A stretch of DNA of 64,000 nt from an uncultured Clostridia bacterium (GTDB taxonomy: Bacteria; Bacillota; Clostridia; TANB77; CAG-508): contig CAKPOI010000001.1 of NCBI GenBank assembly GCA_934169775.1, positions 16,558-80,557 of the forward strand, in the 5' to 3' direction. The notes below the pieces were generated by a model. It did no database searches, was not told the DNA's origin, and saw only the letters and a program-made list of their open reading frames with translations. The translations under genes were made by a program, and so were the position numbers. Within the stretch, counting starts at the first letter, position 1; the number at the start of each line of letters is the position of its first letter. Below are positions 27,701 through 57,047 of this stretch, one piece after another.

Positions 27701-30700
27701 CTTTGTGCCTCTATTTGTGCTTTTGATATTTCAAATGCTTTTGCTACATTTTCTTTATTCTGATATTTTTTAATATTTTCTAATGCAATTTCTTTGCTTT
27801 CTCCTACTGATATTACTAGGTCTAACTCTACTTTTTCTTGTGGTTTTATTTTTATTGTTCTTTTTAATGCAATTATTCCTTCTGTTACTAGTGATATTTT
27901 TTGTGATAGTGGCGTTGAATTTTTTACCATTTCTGGAATTTGTATATTTCCTCTTCCTGTAAATTTTTCTTTGTCTATTTCAAATTCTAGTTGCCCTATT
28001 GTTTCTATTTCTGGTGCAACTAAATTTACTGCTAAATATATCTTTTGCTCGCTTTTTTCTCTTGTTCTTCTTTTTACTAATATACTATTTGTGTTTTCAT
28101 CATAATTGAATTTTAGGAATAAATTGTTGAATACCGGATGTGCATAATCTTGTTCTTTTTTTGAAAGCACTGGTTCAAAATATGCAGTTATTTCTAATAT
28201 TTCTTCTTCTAGCCCCCTGTTTTCTAATGTTACTTTTCTAATTTCAGAATTATCATCAGGAGTGATTATTGTTTGTATTTTTGTCTTTATGTTATCTTGC
28301 TCTATTTCTTGTTCTATTTTGTCTGGCATAAAACTTATTTTGTAATTGTTTGTTTCTTTGTATTGGCATGAACTCCATATATTTTTTGTTTTTATATTTT
28401 TTACGTTAAAAAATATTCCTTGTGGATAATCGTCTGTTTTCTTGAATCTGTTTATATATATATCTTTATATTTGCTTACTCCTTCTCCTTTTTGATTCAT
28501 TGCTATTACATAATTTTCGTTTGATATAACATTTCCACGTATTAGTCTTTCATCTAATTTATTGTATGTTACAACACTATAGTCTTCATAATCTTGATAT
28601 TTAGGCTTTTCTATTTTTTCTTTTGTTTCTTTGGTTATTATTGAGGTTTCTGGCATTCTTTCTTGTAAAAGTATAGATATACTATTTATTTCTGGATTTT
28701 CTATAAACCTTTTTTGTAAGATATTATTGTTAAATAAGTTGTTTATTGCTAATAATATTAATGCTTGATGGTGTGCCATATATGTTTTTACTGGTGTTGC
28801 TTTTTCTACTCTTTCTGGTGTAAAGTCTATAGATTCATAAAATCCAAATTTGCCATTCATTCCATATTTTTCTAATAATTTTAGGTTTTTTATAACTTCT
28901 TGTGGTTCGTCTGGAATTGCTAATATACTTCCATATGTTGATGTTACCATTTCATCTGCTAATCCTCTTTTTAGTCCTAGCCATGGTATTCCAAATGCTT
29001 TATATTGATAGTTTCCTTGTAAATCTTTTAAATTAAATGCCGCTTCTGATATTCCCCATGGTATTTGTAATTTTTTTGCATATTCTTTTTGACTCATTAT
29101 CATAAATTTACATGATTCATCTAATAAACTGCCTTCGTATTTTGGTATATTAATATTTGGCATTAAATATTCAAATGATGTTCCTGACCATGATATTAGT
29201 CCTTTATATTTTCCTAATGTTGTAAGTGTTCTGCTTAATTTGTTCCAATGTTTTGCAGGCACATCTTTTTTTGCAATAGCTATTAAACTTGCTTGTCTAG
29301 CTTCTGATGCTAATAAATCATAATATGAATCAGTTAGTTTGTTTTCTTCTATGTTATATCCTATAGAAAAAATCTGCTTTTCTTTGTCATATAATAATGA
29401 AAAGTCTGTTGCGTTTATCATTTTATTTATACATTCTATATATGTGTTTAATTCTGGCAAATTTAGATTTTCTAAAAATGTTTTTGTCGTATATAAATAT
29501 CCTACAAAGTTTCCACTGTCTACTGTTGAGATATATCTTGGCATTAATGGTGTTTTAGTTATTGTGTCATACCAGTTATATAAATGTCCATTCCATTTTT
29601 CTAGACTTATTATTGTATCTAATATCTTTTTTAATAAATCTATTGCTTTTTCTAAAGTTATAAATCCTAAATCATAGCTTGATATTACTGCTAATAGTGA
29701 AAGTCCTATGTTTGTAGAAGATGTTCTTGATACTGTTTTTTGTTTTCTTCCTTCTTGATAATTGTCTATTATTAAATAATTGTTTTTTTCATTTAGATAT
29801 GTTACAAAAAATTCCCATGTTGATTTTGCAATATTTAATAAATATTTTTTATTTTCTTCATTTAATGTTTCTATTGCTGTTTTCTTTTTGCTTTCTTTAC
29901 TTATTTCACACATTATAAATGGAATTAATATCCACAAGATTCCTAGCAAAACACTACATATGTTTTTAATATTTAGTATTATAACAATTGCTCCTAAGAT
30001 CCAATTTATATACATTTGTTTATAATAAGAAATTATATCTGTTTTTGATTGTCTTTCTGCCTCTTCTGAGGTTACCCATTCTAATAAATGTTTTTTACTT
30101 ATTGTTTTTCTGTATATTGTTTTTATTATTGATTTTAATGAGATATATGCTTTATATGGCAAACATCCTAATGTTATTATCGCCCTAAAAGTTATACCTT
30201 TGATTCCTGATATTTGTGGTGTAAATGTTCTTTGTTTTTGCTCTCCTTCTTTTTTACAAATACATTTATTTAATAATTCTAATATTTGTGAAATTATCAC
30301 TATGAGTGATAATAATATTATTAATCCTTTTACTGATATTTGATAAATATTTCCTATTATTATTGTATAAATTGCTGCAATTATTATTGATATTTCTAAT
30401 ATACTTCTTCTTAAATTATCTAATATTTTATATTTTGAAAGTAAATTTAATTTTGAGTTTTTTAACCATTTGGTTATTTGCCAATCTCCTCTAATCCATC
30501 TTGATAATCTGTTCATAAAACTATTATATTTTGTTGGATATCCATCCATTAACATTATATCTGATGCTAGTCCACATCTTAAATAACATCCTTCTAATAA
30601 ATCATGACTTAATACAGTGTTTTCTGGTATTTCGTTTTTTAAAACTTCTGAAAACACTTTTAAATCATATATTCCTTTTCCTGTAAATATTCCTTCTTTA

Positions 30701-32028
30701 AAGTTATCTTGATATATATCAGATATTGCATTTGTGTAATTGTCTATTCCTCCTGATCCTGCAAATATTTTTGTAAAAGTTGTTTTTAGACTTACATCTA
30801 GGTTTATTCCAACACGTGGCTGCATTATTCCATATCCTTCTACTACTATATTTTTTTGTTTATCTATTATTGGTTCATTTAATATATGTGACATTGCTCC
30901 TATTAATTCTTGCGCTGTATTTAATACTAAATCTGTGTCTGCATCTAGTGTTATTATATATTTTATTTGTGGGATTTTTTCTATACTGTTATATAAAAAT
31001 GGATTGTTTATATTTTTTAGTAAGTATTCATTTAACTGATTTAACATTCCTCTTTTTCTTTCCCATCCCAAGTAGCTTTCTTCTTTTTCATTCCATATTC
31101 TTTTTCTATAAATAAAATTGAAAATTGGTAATTCATCTTCTTGACTGTATTTTTTGTTTAATTTTTCTATTTGCTTTTTTCCTTCTTCTATTACTTCTTT
31201 GTCAAATTCTTCTTCTTCTTTATTACTTTCTGAACAATCTCCTAATAATGTAAAATATAAATTTTCTGATTTATTTGCTATATAATATATTTCTAATTTT
31301 TTCATTAGTTCTTTTACTTTTTCTTTTGTTTTTACTATTGTTGGTATTACTACCATTGTTGCTTGTTCTTTTGGTATTCCATTTTGGTAATCCATTTTTG
31401 GTATTAGTTTTGGTTTTATAGTTTTGCTTAATATATATTGCACTATTTGTGTTACTATTTCGCTACATGGTATTATTAATAGTATTGCTAATATTACATT
31501 TAGAATCGTTCTTGTTATTGTTGATATTTCTGAATTTGTTTTTAATATTTTATAATTAATTACTAATGTTATTGATACTGAAAGTAATACTGTAAGTATA
31601 ACTATTAGTGTTACAAATTGTTTTGCTTTTGTTTTAGTATTTGTGGTCTTTTTGTGTCTGACTTTTAGGTTATCATATAGTTGTTCTATTCCTTTATCTA
31701 TTAAATAGTATCCAATATGTGATTTTTTTCCTTCTTCTTTTTTGGCTATTTCTAATATTTTTCTTGCTATATATATTTCTGATATTTTGGTTTTTTCTGA
31801 TATTTCTTTTATTTTGTTTCTGTAGTATTCCTTTGTTTTCCAATCCATGTTTGGATATACATTACTTGGATCTTGCTTTAGTACATCTTCTACTCCATTT
31901 ATTTTTTCAAATATTTCTAAAAAGTTTATTCTTTGTATTGTTTTTAGACTTGTTATGCTATTTCCCATTAGTACTTTTTGTATTGCTACATCAAAGTGTT
32001 CTTTTTGTATTACTTCTGATACTGTCAT
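24706..32028 (-). CDS. Cyclic beta-1,2-glucan synthase-like giant protein (Cgs/NdvB-like: polytopic membrane region, GT domain, GH94 phosphorylase domain). This is the C-terminal 2440 aa; it is continuous with 31991..32800 after a single-base correction.
   Basis: GT motifs (ITLDADTDL, MQPRVG, RLSRWIRGDWQ). C-terminal GH94 domain (ENGGQYTHASCW). Size and architecture match Cgs. Confidence 0.7.
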   Translation of the reverse strand: MTVSEVIQKEHFDVAIQKVLMGNSITSLKTIQRINFLEIFEKINGVEDVLKQDPSNVYPNMDWKTKEYYRNKIKEISEKTKISEIYIARKILEIAKKEEGKKSHIGYYLIDKGIEQLYDNLKVRHKKTTNTKTKAKQFVTLIVILTVLLSVSITLVINYKILKTNSEISTITRTILNVILAILLIIPCSEIVTQIVQYILSKTIKPKLIPKMDYQNGIPKEQATMVVIPTIVKTKEKVKELMKKLEIYYIANKSENLYFTLLGDCSESNKEEEEFDKEVIEEGKKQIEKLNKKYSQEDELPIFNFIYRKRIWNEKEESYLGWERKRGMLNQLNEYLLKNINNPFLYNSIEKIPQIKYIITLDADTDLVLNTAQELIGAMSHILNEPIIDKQKNIVVEGYGIMQPRVGINLDVSLKTTFTKIFAGSGGIDNYTNAISDIYQDNFKEGIFTGKGIYDLKVFSEVLKNEIPENTVLSHDLLEGCYLRCGLASDIMLMDGYPTKYNSFMNRLSRWIRGDWQITKWLKNSKLNLLSKYKILDNLRRSILEISIIIAAIYTIIIGNIYQISVKGLIILLSLIVIISQILELLNKCICKKEGEQKQRTFTPQISGIKGITFRAIITLGCLPYKAYISLKSIIKTIYRKTISKKHLLEWVTSEEAERQSKTDIISYYKQMYINWILGAIVIILNIKNICSVLLGILWILIPFIMCEISKESKKKTAIETLNEENKKYLLNIAKSTWEFFVTYLNEKNNYLIIDNYQEGRKQKTVSRTSSTNIGLSLLAVISSYDLGFITLEKAIDLLKKILDTIISLEKWNGHLYNWYDTITKTPLMPRYISTVDSGNFVGYLYTTKTFLENLNLPELNTYIECINKMINATDFSLLYDKEKQIFSIGYNIEENKLTDSYYDLLASEARQASLIAIAKKDVPAKHWNKLSRTLTTLGKYKGLISWSGTSFEYLMPNINIPKYEGSLLDESCKFMIMSQKEYAKKLQIPWGISEAAFNLKDLQGNYQYKAFGIPWLGLKRGLADEMVTSTYGSILAIPDEPQEVIKNLKLLEKYGMNGKFGFYESIDFTPERVEKATPVKTYMAHHQALILLAINNLFNNNILQKRFIENPEINSISILLQERMPETSIITKETKEKIEKPKYQDYEDYSVVTYNKLDERLIRGNVISNENYVIAMNQKGEGVSKYKDIYINRFKKTDDYPQGIFFNVKNIKTKNIWSSCQYKETNNYKISFMPDKIEQEIEQDNIKTKIQTIITPDDNSEIRKVTLENRGLEEEILEITAYFEPVLSKKEQDYAHPVFNNLFLKFNYDENTNSILVKRRTREKSEQKIYLAVNLVAPEIETIGQLEFEIDKEKFTGRGNIQIPEMVKNSTPLSQKISLVTEGIIALKRTIKIKPQEKVELDLVISVGESKEIALENIKKYQNKENVAKAFEISKAQIEAQSRYLRIKGKDIEQYQKILSYIIFDNPSKKLQLEKLPKKIYEQSELWKYGISGDLPIILVKVKDLNDSDVIKEILKAYEFFRIKKVEVELVLIDEEKHSYENYVREEMENIVLNSHLAYLKNIRGGIFQLNKNEIDKKDMELLEFVATVIIDSSKGSLKNAINDIEEEYFEKTKIIEDEENSNVIIEEKQEVNNFMKEIDDLKYFNEYGAFSSNGKEYLIKMNKENRLPTVWSHILANKKFGTLVTENMGGYTWYKNSRLNRITSWANMPTYDIPSESIYLKDEETKKVWSLGLNPMPDNNEYDVIYGFGYAKYIHKSNGIEQILEVYVPKEDSVKVQILHLKNTTPNRKKLKIYCYNKLVIGEDEQKITEYIDLKYDKNNNILIAQNLYNSDFKEVAYVASSEKIKSYTGDKKFFFGKGGIGNPDGIRKTMLNNIGSLGKSSCVVYQLEVEIESFGEKEISLLLGAEENILDSKNIAYKYSKIQNCKQELENIKNEWKNKVETLQVYTPIESINIMLNGWVLYQTISSRLLGKTGYYQSGGAYGFRDQLQDTLCLKYVDSEYLKQQIIKHSKHQFEEGDVEHWWHDETQRGIRTRFSDDLLWLVYATLEYIDFTGDNEILNIETPYLKGQILEQGIDERYDKYIESDKTGTIYEHCIKSIEKSLNFGKHGLPKIGSGDWNDGMNEVGNKGKGESVWLGFFLYNILDRFIPIVKQKEEFERAEKYEKIKQELKKALNTSGWDGRWYKRAFTDDGQVLGSMENEECRIDSIAQSWSTISKAGDNDKKYISMESLENHLVDKENGIIKLLDPPFEKGKLEPGYIKAYLPGVRENGGQYTHASCWVTIAEAMLGFGGKAFELYKMINPIEHARTKEMAQKYKVEPYVIPADIYGAGNLAGRGGWTWYTGSSCWYYKAGIEYILGIKIEKGVLKINPGIPKDWKAFSVRYKWKNTLYNILVENPNGYETGISKIFINNIEQTSNEIKLQENAGVMNVEVFLGG

Positions 32029-52950: not shown

Positions 52951-54627
52951 TTATATTAATTGCATTTTTACTTCTTTTCCTTTAAATGCAAATACCATTT
53001 TTGTTATGTTTGTATATCCTTTTTCTTGTAGATCTTCTTCATATTTTCTTTCTTCTATTTGCTTTTTGGCATTTTCTATTGTGTCTTCTATATCTTTTTC
53101 TCTGTCCTCTTTGTATACTTTAAATTCCATTATAAAGCTGTTTCCGTTTTTGTCTTTTGGTTCTAACATTATATCGTATCTTCCATATCCTGATTCTCTA
53201 TTGGATTTTACATAGTAGCTGTCTTTTAAGCCTACTAACATTCCTAATACAAATGCATGGTAAAAGTTTTCTGCTGTGTTTTCGCCTACATCCATATAAC
53301 TGAACATTTGAGTTACTAGTACCTTGAATTTTGTTTCAAATTCATCTAAATTTAATGTTATTAAGTCTTTTAATATTGTATTTAAATTGTTTCCTATTAC
53401 TTTATCATTAAACCATTCTCTTATTATGGTTTGAAATAAGAATTTTATTTCATAATTTGGTATTTTTACTTTGTATATTCCTGTTGCTAAATCTACTACT
53501 TCTGTTACTTTTAAATATCCTGTTCCTAATAATAGTCCCCAGATATTTTCTTCGTTTTGCTCTATTCCTACTATTACTGTGTCTAAATTTATTGGTACTT
53601 CTATTTCTTCATCTCGTAATAATTGCTCTATTTTTTCTTTTACTGTTACACTATTTTTTAGTATTAATTTTATTAAGTCATTTGAACTTGTGTTTACCCA
53701 ATATGGCATTAATTTTCTGTCTGTTAAATAGTTTAATATGCTCCATGGATTATATATTCCTTCTGTGTTTCCTATTGTGTATCCATCATACCACTTTTTA
53801 ATTTCGTCTTTTTCGTCTTGTATTTCAAAATCTTGTATAATTTTATCCATTTCTTTTTCTGTTATTCCAAAGTCATCACTGAATTCGTCATCTAATACTG
53901 TATATACTTTAAAGTTATTTGCTCCACTAAATATGCTTTCTTTTGCTACTCTTGATACTCCTGTTAATACTGTTTTTTCTAAATATGGATTGTCCTTAAA
54001 TGTCGTTCCATAAAATATTTTGAAAAATGATATTCCTTTTTCATAATAACTATTTACATATGCTGTTTGTAAAGGTACATCATATTCATCTAAAAATAAC
54101 ATTACTGGTTTATCATAATAGCGTGATAAATATTCGCTCAAATCTTTTACACTATTTTTTAAGGTTACTTCATCTTCTCTAAAATATAATATATCATTTA
54201 TTTTTTCTTTTTCAAATGGATATATCTTATCACTATCTAACAAGTACATATGTTCTTTATATGTATTTAACATTGCTGTTTTCATATTTAGTATCATGTT
54301 TTCATATGTGCTTTCGTTTACATCTTTTAATGTTATGTATATACATGGATAATATCCTAGCTTTGATGTGTATTTTTCATCTTGTTCCATTATTTTTAGG
54401 CCTTCAAATATTTCTTTACTGTCTTTTTTTGTACAGTCAAAATAGTATTTTAACATACTCATGTTTAGCGTTTTTCCGAATCTTCTTGGTCTTGTTACTA
54501 ATATTACTGATGCCTCATTGTCTATTATATCTTTTATATACATGGTTTTGTCTATATAATAGTTTTTTCTTATTCTTAATGCTTTAAAATCACTTTGCCC
54601 TATTCCTATTCCATACATATACCTCAC
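52951..54627 (-). CDS. AAA-ATPase-like / PD-(D/E)XK nuclease family protein (DUF1703-type), 558 aa. Intact copy of the remnant at 15179..15775.
   Basis: N-terminal YGIGIGQSDFKALR...VTRPRRFGKTLNMSML (AAA-ATPase-like). C-terminal nuclease-like region (FDIM...EFKV). Confidence 0.65.
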   Translation of the reverse strand: MRYMYGIGIGQSDFKALRIRKNYYIDKTMYIKDIIDNEASVILVTRPRRFGKTLNMSMLKYYFDCTKKDSKEIFEGLKIMEQDEKYTSKLGYYPCIYITLKDVNESTYENMILNMKTAMLNTYKEHMYLLDSDKIYPFEKEKINDILYFREDEVTLKNSVKDLSEYLSRYYDKPVMLFLDEYDVPLQTAYVNSYYEKGISFFKIFYGTTFKDNPYLEKTVLTGVSRVAKESIFSGANNFKVYTVLDDEFSDDFGITEKEMDKIIQDFEIQDEKDEIKKWYDGYTIGNTEGIYNPWSILNYLTDRKLMPYWVNTSSNDLIKLILKNSVTVKEKIEQLLRDEEIEVPINLDTVIVGIEQNEENIWGLLLGTGYLKVTEVVDLATGIYKVKIPNYEIKFLFQTIIREWFNDKVIGNNLNTILKDLITLNLDEFETKFKVLVTQMFSYMDVGENTAENFYHAFVLGMLVGLKDSYYVKSNRESGYGRYDIMLEPKDKNGNSFIMEFKVYKEDREKDIEDTIENAKKQIEERKYEEDLQEKGYTNITKMVFAFKGKEVKMQLI

Positions 54628-54727: not shown

Positions 54728-54976
54728 TTATTTGCTTTTTACTAGCTCTTTTATAACTATTTGTTTTTCTTCTATTCTTCCTTCTATCCATATTATATCT
54801 TCTTTTTTTAATTTTCTATAGCATTTGTCTGCTATCTCGTTATATCCTATTACTTTTATTTTTGATTTGTTATCTAATTCTATTTCAAATATTATTACTG
54901 CATCTGCATTTCTTATAAATGTAAATTTATATTCTGGTTCTGTTATTATTTTTCCTTTTATAAAACATATATTCAT
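54728..54976 (-). CDS. Hypothetical small protein (82 aa), possibly an OB-fold.
   Basis: ORF only. Confidence 0.3.
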   Translation of the reverse strand: MNICFIKGKIITEPEYKFTFIRNADAVIIFEIELDNKSKIKVIGYNEIADKCYRKLKKEDIIWIEGRIEEKQIVIKELVKSK

Positions 54977-55181
54977 TTCTTTTTCCTTTTTTTATTTACT
55001 TGCGTAAAATAAATACATTCAATTTCTTTACTAATATTTATTTTACTGATTCTTTTTTACCTATTCTTATTATTTTTTCTATTTTTATATATTTAATAAT
55101 TTCGGAAGGAATAAATCTCTTTAATACTAATACCTTTACTGTATATATTCCGTAAAATATATAATCTGAAATTTGTATTAG

Positions 55182-55315
55182 AGTGCTGGACGGAAACTAA
55201 TATTGTTGTTGCTGTTAGTCGTGCTATTGTTATTACGGTTAGAGGCTGGATTATTAGAGCCTGTATTGTTGTAATTGCCTCCCCTGTTGGCACAAGGATT
55301 GCTACTGTTGGAAGT
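55182..55315 (-). other. DGR template repeat (TR), 134 bp, located 68 bp downstream of the RT gene.
   Basis: 134-bp homology to 57061-57194 (VR). All 16 differences lie at TR adenines (sense strand). The TR is rich in AAC/AAT codons. Homology ends at ...AGTGCTGG. Confidence 0.85.
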
Positions 55316-55383
55316 TTTCGATTTATCCCTAATTTTCTTTTTTTGTTTATATTGTAATATTAAATTAAGTTATTTTATATTTT

Positions 55384-56169
55384 TTATTCTATGTAAAATA
55401 ATTTGTTTGTTAAATTGTATACATTTGCTATTTGTATATATCCCATATGTCCTGCTAAATATTTTTTTGCTTCTTGTTTTGTTTTTACAAATATTATGCT
55501 GTCGTCCAAATATCTTTTATAATATTTTATTTTTAACTTATGCTTTATGTATTGGTCTACTTCATTTAAATATATGTTTGCAAACATTTGTGATGTGTAA
55601 TTTCCTATTTCTAATCCTTTTGGTCTTTTCTGTGCATATATTATTTCTTCTAATAACCATATTACATCTTTGTCTTTTATTTTTCTTTTTAATATTTTTA
55701 GTAATGTTTGTTTGTCTATATTATCAAAATATTTTGATATATCCATTTTTAGTATATAATATTCTCCCCATTTAGCTTTACAGTGTTTCATTGTTTTTTG
55801 TGTGTCTAAACATGCTTTATGCATTCCTCTGTTTTTTATACATGCATATGTGGTTTTTATAAATTGTGGTACATATGCTGGTTCTAAAAATTTGTCTACT
55901 ACCCATCTGTGTACTATTCTGTCTATATATCTTGATTTTTCTATTTTTCTTACTTTTGGTTCTGTTACATAAAATTCTGTATATCCTCCATGCCTGTATG
56001 TTTTGGTTTTTAGTTTTTCTAATAGCCACATTATATATTCTTCTTGTTTTAAATTAAATTCTATTATTTCTTTTCTATAGCCTTTTCCTTTTTGTGATTC
56101 TTTATGTGCAAGCATTAGTTTTTCGTATGTTAGGTTTTCTTCATATTTGTTTCGTATCGTTTTTGGCAT
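55384..56169 (-). CDS. Diversity-generating retroelement reverse transcriptase (261 aa; short, thumb region reduced).
   Basis: RT motifs 1-5 with the DGR-specific IGNYTSQ motif 4 ([I/L/V]GxxxSQ instead of QGxxxSP) and a YLDD catalytic box. The N-terminus aligns with Bordetella bRT-like RTs. Confidence 0.8.
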   Translation of the reverse strand: MPKTIRNKYEENLTYEKLMLAHKESQKGKGYRKEIIEFNLKQEEYIMWLLEKLKTKTYRHGGYTEFYVTEPKVRKIEKSRYIDRIVHRWVVDKFLEPAYVPQFIKTTYACIKNRGMHKACLDTQKTMKHCKAKWGEYYILKMDISKYFDNIDKQTLLKILKRKIKDKDVIWLLEEIIYAQKRPKGLEIGNYTSQMFANIYLNEVDQYIKHKLKIKYYKRYLDDSIIFVKTKQEAKKYLAGHMGYIQIANVYNLTNKLFYIE

Positions 56170-56530
56170 AGTATTTTATTAGTCCTCCTAATATTTTTCC
56201 TATTTCATATATTTGCTCCATTGCTATTCTGAATTTCTTTTCATCTATCCATTGGTTCTTTTTCATTATTCTTAAATAAATTCTTTGTGTATTTAGTTCT
56301 GCATCTATATGGTTTAATGTTTCTATTATTTGACTTTTTTCTCCTTTACCTATTTTGTTTATATACATTATTTTTCTTATCATTTGATACATACTTTGTT
56401 TATATTCGTTTCCTATACTAAATTTTTCTATTCTTGGAAGTTTTATTATTACCTGTAATATGTATTCTATATATTTTTCTGCCTTTGGTATTAATTGTAG
56501 TTTATTTTCTTTTTCACTCTTTTTATCCAT
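56141..56530 (-). CDS. avd: Avd-like accessory variability determinant (129-aa basic helical-bundle protein); overlaps the RT start.
   Basis: Size, basic helical character, and its position immediately upstream of and overlapping the DGR RT. Confidence 0.55.
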   Translation of the reverse strand: MDKKSEKENKLQLIPKAEKYIEYILQVIIKLPRIEKFSIGNEYKQSMYQMIRKIMYINKIGKGEKSQIIETLNHIDAELNTQRIYLRIMKKNQWIDEKKFRIAMEQIYEIGKILGGLIKYYAKNDTKQI

Positions 56531-56779
56531 TTAATCGTTTTCCTTTTTATTGCTTCTATATTCTTTTTCTTCTAATTTTTTCATATATGTTTCTATTGAA
56601 TTTACTGGTATTCCTATTTTACATACTTCTGGTTCCATGCATAATAACTTTAACCCTAATATTTCGTTTAATTTTACTGCGTCTTTTCCTCTCGCTAAAT
56701 AAAATGCTCCTGCATTTGTCAATATTATGTATCCTTTATTTTTTTCTTGTAATAATTCTAACATTTTACTAAATCCCAT
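56531..56779 (-). CDS. Small protein resembling MutS mismatch-binding domain I (82 aa); first gene of the avd-RT operon.
   Basis: AGAFYLARGKDAVKLNEILGLKL...IGIPVNSIETYMKKL aligns with MutS domain I ([23 protein letters not shown]...AGIPYHAVENYLAKL). The mismatch-contacting Glu is replaced by Leu. Confidence 0.35.
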   Translation of the reverse strand: MGFSKMLELLQEKNKGYIILTNAGAFYLARGKDAVKLNEILGLKLLCMEPEVCKIGIPVNSIETYMKKLEEKEYRSNKKEND

Positions 56780-56843
56780 TTTCTACCTCCTGCTTTGTTT
56801 TATTTTTAAAGCTGGCGCGGTTCGTTTTTTTGCCTGAAAGCTC

Positions 56844-56880
56844 AAAAAAAACGCTACCGCCAGGTAGCGCTACCTCCAGG
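56844..56880 (-). terminator. Rho-independent terminator about 170 bp downstream of the DGR target gene.
   Basis: Minus strand reads CGCTACC-TGGC-GGTAGCG followed by T8. Confidence 0.55.
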
Positions 56881-57047
56881 TGAAAAATTGTATTTCTGGA
56901 TTTACCAAGAACAAGTTCTTGATAAATTCTGTCCTTCAATTTTCCACCTGCCTCTAGCGTATTTCATTCGCTAGAGGGTACTTATTATTCAATTTACCGG
57001 CTATAAAATGGCTCTCTCGCCTATTTTATAATCACGGGCTTTAGCTT

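What the first reader, a model, noticed from the sequence alone, without database searches (positions are those of the whole stretch)
55182..55315. TR-VR pair shows pure adenine-specific mutagenesis (16/16 mismatches at TR adenines)
Aligning 55182-55315 (TR) with 57061-57194 (VR) gives 134 bp with 16 mismatches. Every one falls where the TR sense strand has A, which becomes C, G or T in the VR. Examples: AGCAATCC to AGCCTTCC; GGCAATTAC to GGCCGTTAC; AGCAACAAC to AGCATCTAC. The TR is built of AAC/AAT codons (NNSTTNSNNNISF). This is the signature of adenine-selective DGR mutagenic retrohoming. Both flanks of the repeat are identical, which implies recent activity.
Basis: seen in the sequence. 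Interest (0 to 1): 0.85.

Follow-up and report, generated by a model that had tools for sequence, protein, structure and literature searches.

The report
Crippled diversity-generating retroelement with frozen variable region
The repeat pair is a genuine footprint of a diversity-generating retroelement that rewrote the tip of a surface protein in an uncultured gut Clostridia bacterium, but in this genome the element's reverse transcriptase has lost 75 amino acids, so it is an ordinary, probably dead member of a well-known system.

Summary
Window 55182-55315 (TR) and 57061-57194 (VR) align without gaps. All 16 mismatches fall on template adenines of the coding (minus) strand (chance 1.6e-8), in 13 of 16 AAY codons, at codon positions 1 and 2 only.

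The context is a canonical diversity-generating retroelement (DGR) on the minus strand:
- a pilin-like target gene with the VR at its 3' end
- a MutS-like accessory gene (MSL)
- Avd
- the reverse transcriptase (RT)
- the TR
- Rfam RT-14 RNA
- a small SSB-like gene

About 80 related loci in gut Clostridia metagenome-assembled genomes share this layout.

The claim of "recent activity" is not supported. The RT has a clean 225-nt in-frame deletion between 14-nt direct repeats, which removes motifs 6-7 and most of the thumb. The MSL gene is also truncated. The same VR recurs in three samples and, with one A-site change, in strains that lack the whole cassette. Other strains carry different VRs that differ at template A sites, so the element did diversify this gene in the past.

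Side findings:
- An 11-bp covarying helix brackets the TR.
- The SSB-like gene is a conserved cassette member.
- Deletions recur in the cassette.

This is a new member of a known kind, of modest interest.

The parts
57048..58361 (-). Target gene, 437 aa. It has an N-terminal prepilin-like hydrophobic segment, a Gly-rich linker and a C-terminal FGE-sulfatase-like domain that ends in the VR.
   Evidence: ORF. Pfam matches are weak: N_methyl in 52 of 54 homologues and FGE-sulfatase in 30 of 54 (best E 2.7e-4). Homologues are listed.
57061..57194 (-). Variable region (VR), the last ~45 codons of the target. Homology with the TR extends to 57058-57197.
56780..57047 (-). Structured, GC-enriched 3' UTR of the target. 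It contains a covarying hairpin (56978..56951), a long hairpin (56945..56882), and a duplicated 13-nt unit that forms an intrinsic terminator (56880..56844). It is retained in the strains that lack the cassette.
   Evidence: No Rfam match.
56531..56779 (-). MSL (MutS domain I-like) accessory gene. It is truncated to 82 aa by a ~220-nt 3' deletion; relatives are 135-156 aa.
   Evidence: Pfam MutS_I E 2.9e-7. ORF lengths. Deletion shown.
56141..56530 (-). Avd accessory protein, 129 aa, intact.
   Evidence: Pfam bAvd 70 bits (gathering score 40), and NCBIfam DivGenRetAVD E 8e-21. It is 96% identical to the Avd of the intact paralogue.
55384..56169 (-). DGR reverse transcriptase, 261 aa. It carries an in-frame 225-nt (75-aa) internal deletion; the junction lies at 55475..55454.
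55320..55330 (-). 5' arm (AGGGATAAATC) of an 11-bp long-range helix. It ends 1 nt before the TR.
55182..55315 (-). Template repeat (TR). It is non-coding, with an in-frame stop after ...RPAL. Homology with the VR extends to 55179-55318.
55004..55183 (-). RT-14 RNA (Rfam RF02921), starting at the last bases of the TR. It contains the 3' arm (GATTTATTCCT, 55117..55107) of the helix that brackets the TR.
   Evidence: 79.4 bits against a gathering score of 48.1, E 2.4e-10. Found in 15 of 15 related loci at the same position. Helix.
54728..54976 (-). SSB-like OB-fold gene, 82 aa. It is the last gene of the cassette and is deleted together with it in the cassette-less strains.
   Evidence: Weak Pfam SSB and OB matches. 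AlphaFold2 model pLDDT 88. The top 50 PDB matches are all bacterial SSBs. Present in 60 of 74 loci. Deletion end-point.

Best explanation
This is a chromosomal diversity-generating retroelement (DGR) of the Avd + MutS-like (MSL) type, in a 27% GC uncultured gut Clostridia genome.

Mechanism, inferred from the Bordetella phage paradigm: an RNA is made that comprises a short 5' motif, the TR and the RT-14 structured RNA. An 11-bp helix between the 5' motif and RT-14 brackets the TR. RT-Avd copies the TR into cDNA and misincorporates opposite adenines. The cDNA then replaces the VR, which forms the last ~45 codons of a pilin-like surface protein with an FGE-sulfatase/C-type-lectin-like tip. The 16 (17) A-to-N differences are the trace of the last such event.

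In this genome the element is crippled. The RT has lost 75 residues (motifs 6-7 and most of the thumb) through a deletion between 14-nt direct repeats, and the MSL gene is truncated. The VR is therefore most likely a frozen product, not an actively varying sequence. The whole locus is decaying in the species through recurrent deletions between short repeats.
For: Shown:
- The substitution pattern is A-only, with P = 1.6e-8.
- Avd, RT and MSL are identified.
- The intact paralogue P0126 aligns to bRT (8ub7) over residues 3-329, E 2e-38.
- RT-14 RNA scores above its gathering threshold here and in 15 of 15 relatives, always abutting the TR 3' end.
- The bracketing helix is 99.8% paired, has 4 compensatory pairs, and no shuffle out of 500 reaches its covariation score.
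- About 50 related loci have A-specific TR/VR pairs in the same layout.
- The RT deletion lies between exact AAGAAGCAAAAAAA repeats 225 nt apart in the intact paralogue.
- MSL is 82 aa here against 155 aa in L001.
- The deleted RT is present in five independent assemblies.
- Population data: the VR of this window is unchanged in L097 and L102, and differs at one A site in the cassette-less L089, L090, L091 and L096. Three other VR alleles occur (L092/L095, L093, L094); for L092 and L093, compared at nucleotide level, the differences from the TR are concentrated at A sites.

Inferred: the priming and cDNA-stop roles of the RNA elements are inferred by analogy with bRT-Avd (PMC6182149; 10.1101/2023.10.23.563531).
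Against: - No non-A mismatch has accumulated in the 134-nt core, which argues that the last retrohoming was not ancient.
- The Δ75 RT ORF is still open. Differences between the Δ75 alleles show pN/pS of 0.16-0.18. However, all 17 of those substitutions lie 5' of nt 499, while the deletion-bearing 3' part is identical between strains. This fits a recent deletion spread by recombination.
- Strains sharing the deleted RT carry different VRs, which could mean retrohoming continued after the deletion.
- A 93%-identical intact paralogous RT exists in the species, with a 96%-identical Avd and nearly identical TR-flanking RNA. It could act in trans.
- Loss of activity in the deleted RT is inferred from homology and has not been measured.
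Confidence: 0.75

Rival explanations
1. The element is still diversifying the VR. Either the 261-aa RT keeps enough activity, or an intact paralogous DGR RT-Avd elsewhere in the same genome (the secE-nusG locus type, P0126) uses this locus's TR-RT-14 RNA in trans.
For: - The VR has no non-A mismatch in its core.
- The TR, the bracketing helix, RT-14 and Avd are all intact.
- The TR is identical in the window and L093 although the locus as a whole is 2.4% diverged (P about 0.03).
- Three VR alleles sit next to the same deleted RT.
- The paralogue's Avd is 96% identical and its TR-flanking RNA is almost identical.
- Genomes of this clade often carry several DGR loci (three target paralogues sit on one 1.47-Mb contig).
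Against: - The deleted segment aligns to bRT residues ~229-297, the end of the palm and most of the thumb. In bRT the thumb contacts the template:primer duplex and is wrapped by the 'Thumb Ring' RNA required for cDNA synthesis.
- The window's VR is identical in three samples and nearly so in cassette-less strains, so it is not visibly varying.
- The VR differences between L092 and L093 sit in a block that also includes the diverged flanking intergenic region and MSL, so recombination explains them.
- No second RT is present in the 64-kb window, and the rest of the genome was not available.
- In the species-representative metagenome-assembled genome, the paralogous locus is itself deleted (L001).
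Confidence: 0.2
2. The RT and MSL deletions are assembly artefacts, and the real element is intact.
For: The source is a short-read metagenome assembly. The cassette is repeated at two or three loci per species. One contig (L102) joins this cassette to the flank of a different locus, which could be a chimera.
Against: The same 225-nt deletion with the same junction occurs in at least five independent assemblies from different samples and assemblers (window, L092, L093, L097, L102). It also occurs at the homologous repeat in a 79%-identical element (L098). A 14-nt repeat is too short to collapse a de Bruijn assembly. The junction is in frame and flanked by the exact direct repeat expected for a biological deletion.
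Confidence: 0.03
3. The two sequences are ordinary paralogous 3' ends, or a duplicated segment, that diverged by random mutation.
For: None beyond the existence of a 134-140-nt repeat.
Against: All 16 differences are at template adenines (P = 1.6e-8) and only at codon positions 1-2 of AAY codons. One copy is non-coding, sits directly 3' of an RT gene and is embedded in a conserved RNA structure. The same pattern recurs in about 50 related loci.
Confidence: 0.01

Closest known systems
Bordetella phage BPP-1 DGR (mtd VR - avd - TR - Sp RNA - brt)
   Same: - It shows adenine-specific TR-to-VR transfer.
- It has an Avd protein.
- Its RT is homologous to bRT over its full length (intact paralogue against 8ub7, E 2e-38).
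- A structured RNA lies immediately 3' of the TR.
- A duplex between sequence 5' of the TR and the 3' RNA brackets the TR, like the avd:Sp 'cPRT Stop' duplex.
   Different: - The gene order is avd-RT-TR, not avd-TR-RT.
- It has additional MSL and SSB-like genes.
- The RNA is Rfam RT-14, not RT-10.
- It is chromosomal, not phage-borne.
- The target is a pilin-like protein with an FGE-sulfatase-like tip, not the Mtd tail fibre.
- The RT in this window lacks 75 residues.
MSL-containing DGRs (Architecture D of Wu et al. 2017, PMC5758913; includes the Legionella DGR)
   Same: A small MutS domain I-like gene sits next to avd in the cassette. As in that class, no HRDC gene is present.
   Different: MSL here is 82 aa because of a deletion; family members are 135-156 aa, and Wu et al. 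give 112-283 aa. This family also carries an SSB-like gene that is not among the four accessory classes described there.
Rfam RT-14 RNA (RF02921; Weinberg et al. 2017, PMC5737381)
   Same: The match covers the full model and scores above the gathering threshold, next to an RT gene.
   Different: Weinberg et al. tied only RT-10 to a DGR and speculated about the other RT motifs. Here RT-14 starts within 1-9 nt of the TR 3' end in every locus checked. Its conserved 'unpaired' linker pairs with a motif 5' of the TR. The copy in this window has a 37-nt insertion in one loop.
FGE-sulfatase / C-type-lectin-fold DGR targets such as Treponema denticola TvpA (from my own knowledge)
   Same: The VR occupies the C-terminal ~45 residues, is encoded by AAY-rich template codons, and ends in a conserved ...SFRPAL motif. 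There are weak Pfam FGE-sulfatase matches.
   Different: The N-terminus is prepilin-like rather than a lipoprotein signal. The fold is not confirmed, because the AlphaFold2 model failed with pLDDT 38.

Membership tests
Diversity-generating retroelement (DGR) | A TR/VR near-repeat whose differences fall only at template adenines | tested here: met
   16 of 16 differences are at template A (17 of 18 over the extended repeat), P = 1.6e-8.
Diversity-generating retroelement (DGR) | An RT of the DGR clade next to the TR | tested here: met
   RVT_1 match. The motif-4 signature IGNYTSQ and YLDD are present. The intact 93%-identical paralogue has bRT (8ub7) as its best PDB match, E 2e-38, over residues 3-329.
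Diversity-generating retroelement (DGR) | A complete RT (palm motifs 6-7 and thumb), needed for an autonomous, functional element | tested here: not met
   The RT is 261 aa against 335-341 aa in relatives. The in-frame deletion corresponds to residues 236-310 of P0126, or bRT residues ~229-297.
Diversity-generating retroelement (DGR) | The VR lies at the 3' end of a protein-coding target, and the TR is non-coding | tested here: met
   The VR forms codons ~389-434 of the 437-aa ORF. The TR read in the same frame ends in a stop, and it lies between the RT and the SSB-like gene.
Diversity-generating retroelement (DGR) | An Avd accessory protein | tested here: met
   Pfam bAvd 70 bits (gathering score 40). 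NCBIfam DivGenRetAVD 74.3 bits, just under its cut-off of 80.
Diversity-generating retroelement (DGR) | A structured RNA 3' of the TR, plus a duplex that brackets the TR (priming and stop elements in BPP-1) | tested here: met
   RT-14 abuts the TR. The 11-bp helix shows covariation. The priming function itself was not tested.
Diversity-generating retroelement (DGR) | IMH/IMH* asymmetry and a hairpin/cruciform just 3' of the VR (PMC3240598) | tested here: inconclusive
   The VR and TR share TTTCCGTCCAGCACT and then diverge (CTTTATG against CTCTAAT). A covarying hairpin exists, but it lies ~80 nt downstream of the VR. There is no functional test.
Diversity-generating retroelement (DGR) | A C-type-lectin/FGE-sulfatase (or Ig-like) fold that displays the VR | tested here: inconclusive
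   FGE-sulfatase matches are all below the Pfam threshold: E 0.095 here, and 30 of 54 homologues at E<=0.1 with a best of 2.7e-4. The structure model was unusable. A profile search of the PDB found nothing.
Diversity-generating retroelement (DGR) | Evidence of actual diversification | tested here: met
   This holds for the species. Four VR alleles occur among target proteins 92-100% identical overall; for L092 and L093, compared at nucleotide level, the differences from the TR are concentrated at A sites. It does not hold for this strain lineage, whose VR is identical in three samples.
MSL-type DGR (Architecture D, Wu et al. 2017) | A small MutS-like gene in the cassette together with avd | tested here: met
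   Pfam MutS_I E 2.9e-7. MSL is present in 51 of 67 related loci. The class is described. The copy here is truncated.
Rfam RT-14 RNA (RF02921) | A covariance-model score at or above the curated gathering score | tested here: met
   79.4 bits against 48.1, covering model positions 1-144.
Bacterial SSB (for the 82-aa downstream gene) | An SSB-type OB fold | tested here: met
   AlphaFold2 pLDDT 88. The Foldseek top 50 are all SSBs, with query-normalised TM-scores of 0.74-0.90. The sequence matches are below the Pfam threshold.
Bacterial SSB (for the 82-aa downstream gene) | A C-terminal acidic protein-interaction tail, and ssDNA binding | not tested
   The protein is only 82 aa and ends right after the OB domain. 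Binding cannot be tested with these tools.

The most novel reading that the evidence does not exclude
This gut Clostridia family may be a distinct DGR subtype whose functional core has five parts:
- a MutS-domain-I protein
- Avd
- the RT
- a TR clamped by the RT-14 RNA
- a dedicated mini-SSB

In this reading, the SSB-like and MutS-like proteins handle the single-stranded cDNA and the cDNA:VR heteroduplex. The many independent deletions between short repeats would then act as a natural, recurrent switch that locks a useful VR. Examples are RT Δ75 in at least two lineages, RT-to-TR, RT-to-SSB and MSL-to-SSB deletions, and loss of the whole cassette. Paralogous cassettes could possibly rescue crippled ones in trans.
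Probability: 0.25. Interest if true: 0.55.

Novelty: new member of a known kind. Interest (0 to 1): 0.3.

Why it matters
DGRs are well known and common in gut microbes, so the finding itself adds only one more example. Its value is as a worked natural case with three features.

First, it shows a DGR caught in decay. Several independent deletion alleles occur in one species, alongside variable regions that are frozen or differ between strains. This bears on how long DGR-generated diversity persists and how often the machinery is lost.

Second, it ties an orphan Rfam motif (RT-14) to the RNA that flanks the TR. The covarying helix brackets the TR exactly as the cDNA-stop duplex does in the Bordetella phage.

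Third, it flags a conserved SSB-like gene as a candidate accessory factor. I did not find this gene in the DGR literature I searched.

Tried and rejected
- **Target structure.** The AlphaFold2 model built from 54 homologues gave pLDDT 37.7, so no fold search was run. A profile search of PDB sequences found only a Gly-linker artefact and a weak pilin N-terminus. PHROGs gave nothing useful.
- **Retrohoming after the RT deletion.** I compared L092 and L093, which have near-identical deleted RTs and very different VRs. This cannot prove retrohoming after the deletion, because the adjacent intergenic region and MSL are also diverged, so a recombination tract explains the difference.
- **Selection on the deleted RT.** The pN/pS of 0.16-0.18 looked like selection on the deleted ORF. 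However, all substitutions lie 5' of nt 499 and the 3' part is identical, so the signal predates the deletion.
- **Locus-B TR as donor.** The locus-B TR is not the template for this VR: 39 mismatches, 18 of them at non-A positions.
- **Target 3' UTR.** RNAalifold recovered only one hairpin, and I did not build a covariance model.
- **Size limit.** Two Rfam calls failed on the size limit.
- **Second RT or VR.** Neither is present in the window.

Full report
**Observation.**
Over 55182-55315 and 57061-57194 there are 16 mismatches in 134 nt. All 16 are a + strand T in the downstream copy, which is an A on the coding minus strand. On the sense strand the changes are A->G 8, A->T 6 and A->C 2. With 49 A in 134 nt, the chance that 16 mismatches all fall on A is 1.6e-8.

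In the frame of the 437-aa ORF 58361..57048, the changes lie in 13 of the 16 AAC/AAT codons of the template, at codon positions 1 (10 changes) and 2 (6 changes) and never at position 3. The template copy read in the same frame is N-rich (…NRNNNSTTNSNNNISFRPAL) and ends in a stop, so it is non-coding. The homology runs slightly further than reported, to 55179-55318. This adds a 17th A->G and one non-A change at the extreme 3' edge. There is no further VR-like copy in the window.

**Anatomy.**
Everything lies on the minus strand, in this order:
- **Target gene** (58361..57048), with the VR at its 3' end.
- **Structured spacer** of 268 nt, GC-enriched, ending in an intrinsic terminator.
- **MutS domain I-like ORF** of 82 aa (Pfam E 2.9e-7).
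- **Avd** of 129 aa (Pfam bAvd 70 bits; NCBIfam DivGenRetAVD E 8e-21).
- **RT** of 261 aa, with the DGR-type IGNYTSQ motif and YLDD.
- **TR.**
- **Rfam RT-14 RNA** (55183..55004; 79.4 bits against a gathering score of 48.1).
- **OB-fold gene** of 82 aa.

The flanks are housekeeping genes (gatCAB, rpsT, rpiB), so the element is chromosomal. The MutS-like (MSL) accessory gene is a described class, "Architecture D" of Wu et al. 2017.

**The family.**
A scan of one genome per species found 80 loci, almost all from uncultured gut Clostridia metagenome-assembled genomes.
- They share the layout target - MSL (135-156 aa) - Avd - RT (335-341 aa) - TR - RT-14 - OB gene.
- About 50 of them have a TR/VR pair with at least 80% of mismatches at template A.
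- RT-14 was found in 15 of 15 loci tested, always starting 1-9 nt before the end of the TR/VR homology.
- The OB gene is present in 60 of 74 loci with enough downstream sequence, and MSL in 51 of 67.

**The RNA.**
A conserved motif, AGGGATAAATC, ends 1 nt before the TR (55330..55320). It is complementary to GATTTATTCCT (55117..55107), which lies in the linker that the Rfam RT-14 model treats as unpaired. Across 38 distinct family sequences:
- 99.8% of cells are paired.
- 4 of the 11 pairs show compensatory double changes (UA->CG, AU->GC/UA, CG->GC/UA).
- No shuffle out of 500 reaches the covariation score.
- Sliding the partner by 1-3 columns drops pairing to 66% or less.

The TR is therefore clamped between this helix and the first RT-14 stem. 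This matches the Bordetella phage RNP, where Sp RNA pairs with the TR for priming and with the upstream avd segment to form the "cPRT Stop" (10.1101/2023.10.23.563531; PMC6182149). Weinberg et al. linked only RT-10 to a DGR and speculated about the other RT motifs. RT-14 is evidently the equivalent RNA for this family. The priming and stop functions are inferred here, not shown.

**State of the cassette in this window.**
The RT is 75 residues short. Alignment with relatives shows a clean in-frame gap after …KTKQEAK that resumes at KYLAGHMGY…. In the closest intact paralogue (P0126, 338 aa, 93% identical), the missing 225 nt are flanked by an exact 14-nt direct repeat, AAGAAGCAAAAAAA, spaced exactly 225 nt apart. 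The window retains one copy of that repeat.

P0126 aligns to Bordetella bRT (8ub7) over residues 3-329, E 2e-38. The deleted part corresponds to bRT residues ~229-297. By homology with group II intron RTs this is the end of the palm, with motifs 6-7 (my own knowledge), plus most of the thumb. In bRT the thumb contacts the template:primer duplex and is encircled by an RNA "Thumb Ring" that is required for cDNA synthesis. The enzyme is therefore very probably inactive, but this is an inference.

MSL is also truncated, at 82 aa against 155 aa in L001. This is another deletion between A-rich short repeats. Avd, the TR, the helix, RT-14 and the OB gene are intact.

**Is the deletion real?**
The same junction occurs in five independent assemblies (window, L092, L093, L097, L102). 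It also occurs at the homologous repeat in an element only 79% identical (L098). An assembly artefact is therefore unlikely.

**Population picture.**
Target proteins 91-100% identical to the one in this window fall into four VR alleles.
- The window's VR is identical in L097 and L102.
- It differs at a single A site in L089, L090, L091 and L096. In those strains the whole block from MSL to the OB gene (window ~56807..54729) is absent, and the target's 3' UTR runs straight into the AAA-ATPase gene.
- L092 and L095 share a second VR, L093 has a third and L094 a fourth. For L092 and L093, compared at nucleotide level, the differences from the same TR are concentrated at A positions, though L093 also has a few non-A changes and a 6-nt deletion.

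So the DGR did diversify this gene within the species. But every sampled copy of this locus is damaged or gone:
- RT Δ75 with MSL of 82 aa.
- RT Δ75 with MSL of 103 aa and Avd of 83 aa.
- No cassette at all.

A paralogous locus next to secE-nusG has intact alleles (L081-L088), and also an allele deleted from the RT into mid-TR (L001). Cluster mates show RT-to-OB-gene fusions (P0130, P0131). A third locus next to infC carries an MSL::OB fusion on more than 24 contigs.

**Did retrohoming continue after the deletion?**
I could not show it.
- L092 and L093 have almost identical Δ75 RTs (1 difference in 786 nt) and target backbones (0.6% divergence) but very different VRs. However, the adjacent 3' UTR and MSL are also about 8% diverged, so a recombination tract explains the difference.
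- Differences between the window and the L092/L093 RTs give pN/pS of 0.16-0.18 (P about 4e-4 against neutrality). All of them lie in nt 90-498, whereas nt 499-786 (with the junction), the TR and RT-14 are essentially identical. The simplest reading is a recent deletion that spread by recombination onto older, selected sequence.
- Trans-complementation by the paralogous RT-Avd remains possible. Its Avd is 96% identical and its TR-flanking RNA nearly identical. The window holds no second RT, and the rest of the genome was not available.
- The paralogue's TR is not the donor of this VR.

**Target.**
The N-terminus (KGITLIALVITIIVLLILAG) weakly matches the prepilin N-methylation motif, and the C-terminal part weakly matches FGE-sulfatase. 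Both are below the Pfam thresholds but recur across homologues, in 52 and 30 of 54 respectively. The C-terminal motif NIYDFAGNEWEW…RGG…ISFRPAL resembles the FGE-sulfatase/C-type-lectin-type DGR targets (my own knowledge). The structure prediction failed, so the fold is unconfirmed.

**OB gene.**
The AlphaFold2 model is confident (pLDDT 88), and all top 50 PDB matches are bacterial SSB OB domains, with query-normalised TM-scores of 0.74-0.90. The gene is conserved in the family and is deleted together with the cassette. SSB is not among the accessory classes of Wu et al., and I found no DGR paper describing it. It is a candidate accessory factor, and its function is untested.

**Verdict.**
The "recent activity" inference is not supported. 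What is in the window is the footprint of past mutagenic retrohoming next to a cassette whose RT and MSL genes are truncated, in a species where this locus is being lost repeatedly. It is a new member of a known kind. The RT-14/TR helix, the SSB-like gene and the recurrent deletions are modest additions.

Noticed in passing
window 55330..55320 with 55117..55107 (minus strand): An 11-bp long-range helix joins a motif just 5' of the TR to the 'unpaired' linker of Rfam RT-14. Covariation across 38 family sequences supports it. It brackets the TR like the cPRT-Stop duplex of the Bordetella phage DGR RNA.
   Followed up: yes
window 54728-54976 (minus strand): An 82-aa gene with a confident SSB-type OB fold sits directly after RT-14 in 60 of 74 related DGR loci and is lost together with the cassette. 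It is not among the published DGR accessory classes that I could find.
   Followed up: partly
window 56780-57047 (minus strand); hairpin 56978..56951, long hairpin 56945..56882, terminator unit 56880..56844: The ~260-nt spacer after the VR has 40% GC in a 27% GC genome and is conserved across the family. It holds a hairpin with compensatory changes in 6 of 7 pairs, a long AAATTTT-closed hairpin, and a terminator whose loop and 3' arm are duplicated just upstream. There is no Rfam match. It stays with the target gene when the cassette is deleted. Its role is unknown; it could serve as an attenuator, in DGR target recognition, or in mRNA stability.
   Followed up: partly
window 55454-55475 and 56542-56572; loci L001, L089-L096, L098-L101; proteins P0130, P0131, P0289, P0291: At least eight different deletion alleles of this DGR family occur in closely related strains. 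Where the junctions were inspected they lie at short repeats or shared motifs. They include RT Δ75 in two lineages only 79% identical, RT into mid-TR, RT fused to the SSB-like gene, MSL fused to the SSB-like gene, and loss of the whole 2.08-kb cassette. Most cluster around the 3' half of the RT, the TR and RT-14.
   Followed up: partly
L102 (ERZ28615851) against window 57169..54746: A contig carries the same VR and the same damaged cassette at 99.4% identity, but continues into infC, the flank of a different paralogous DGR locus, and not into the AAA-ATPase gene. This is either recombination between loci or a chimeric assembly.
   Followed up: no
window about 58882: Related strains (L089-L092, L096) carry an extra DUF3990 gene of ~450 nt between the 148-aa ORF and the target gene. 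It is absent from this window.
   Followed up: no
window 52951-54627 (minus strand): The gene immediately after the cassette encodes a predicted AAA-ATPase fused to a PD-(D/E)XK nuclease domain (Pfam AAA-ATPase_like and PDDEXK_9). It is kept in the cassette-less strains, so it is probably unrelated to the DGR.
   Followed up: no
window 24706-32028 (minus strand): A very long ORF of 2440 aa lies elsewhere in the window. It was not examined.
   Followed up: no
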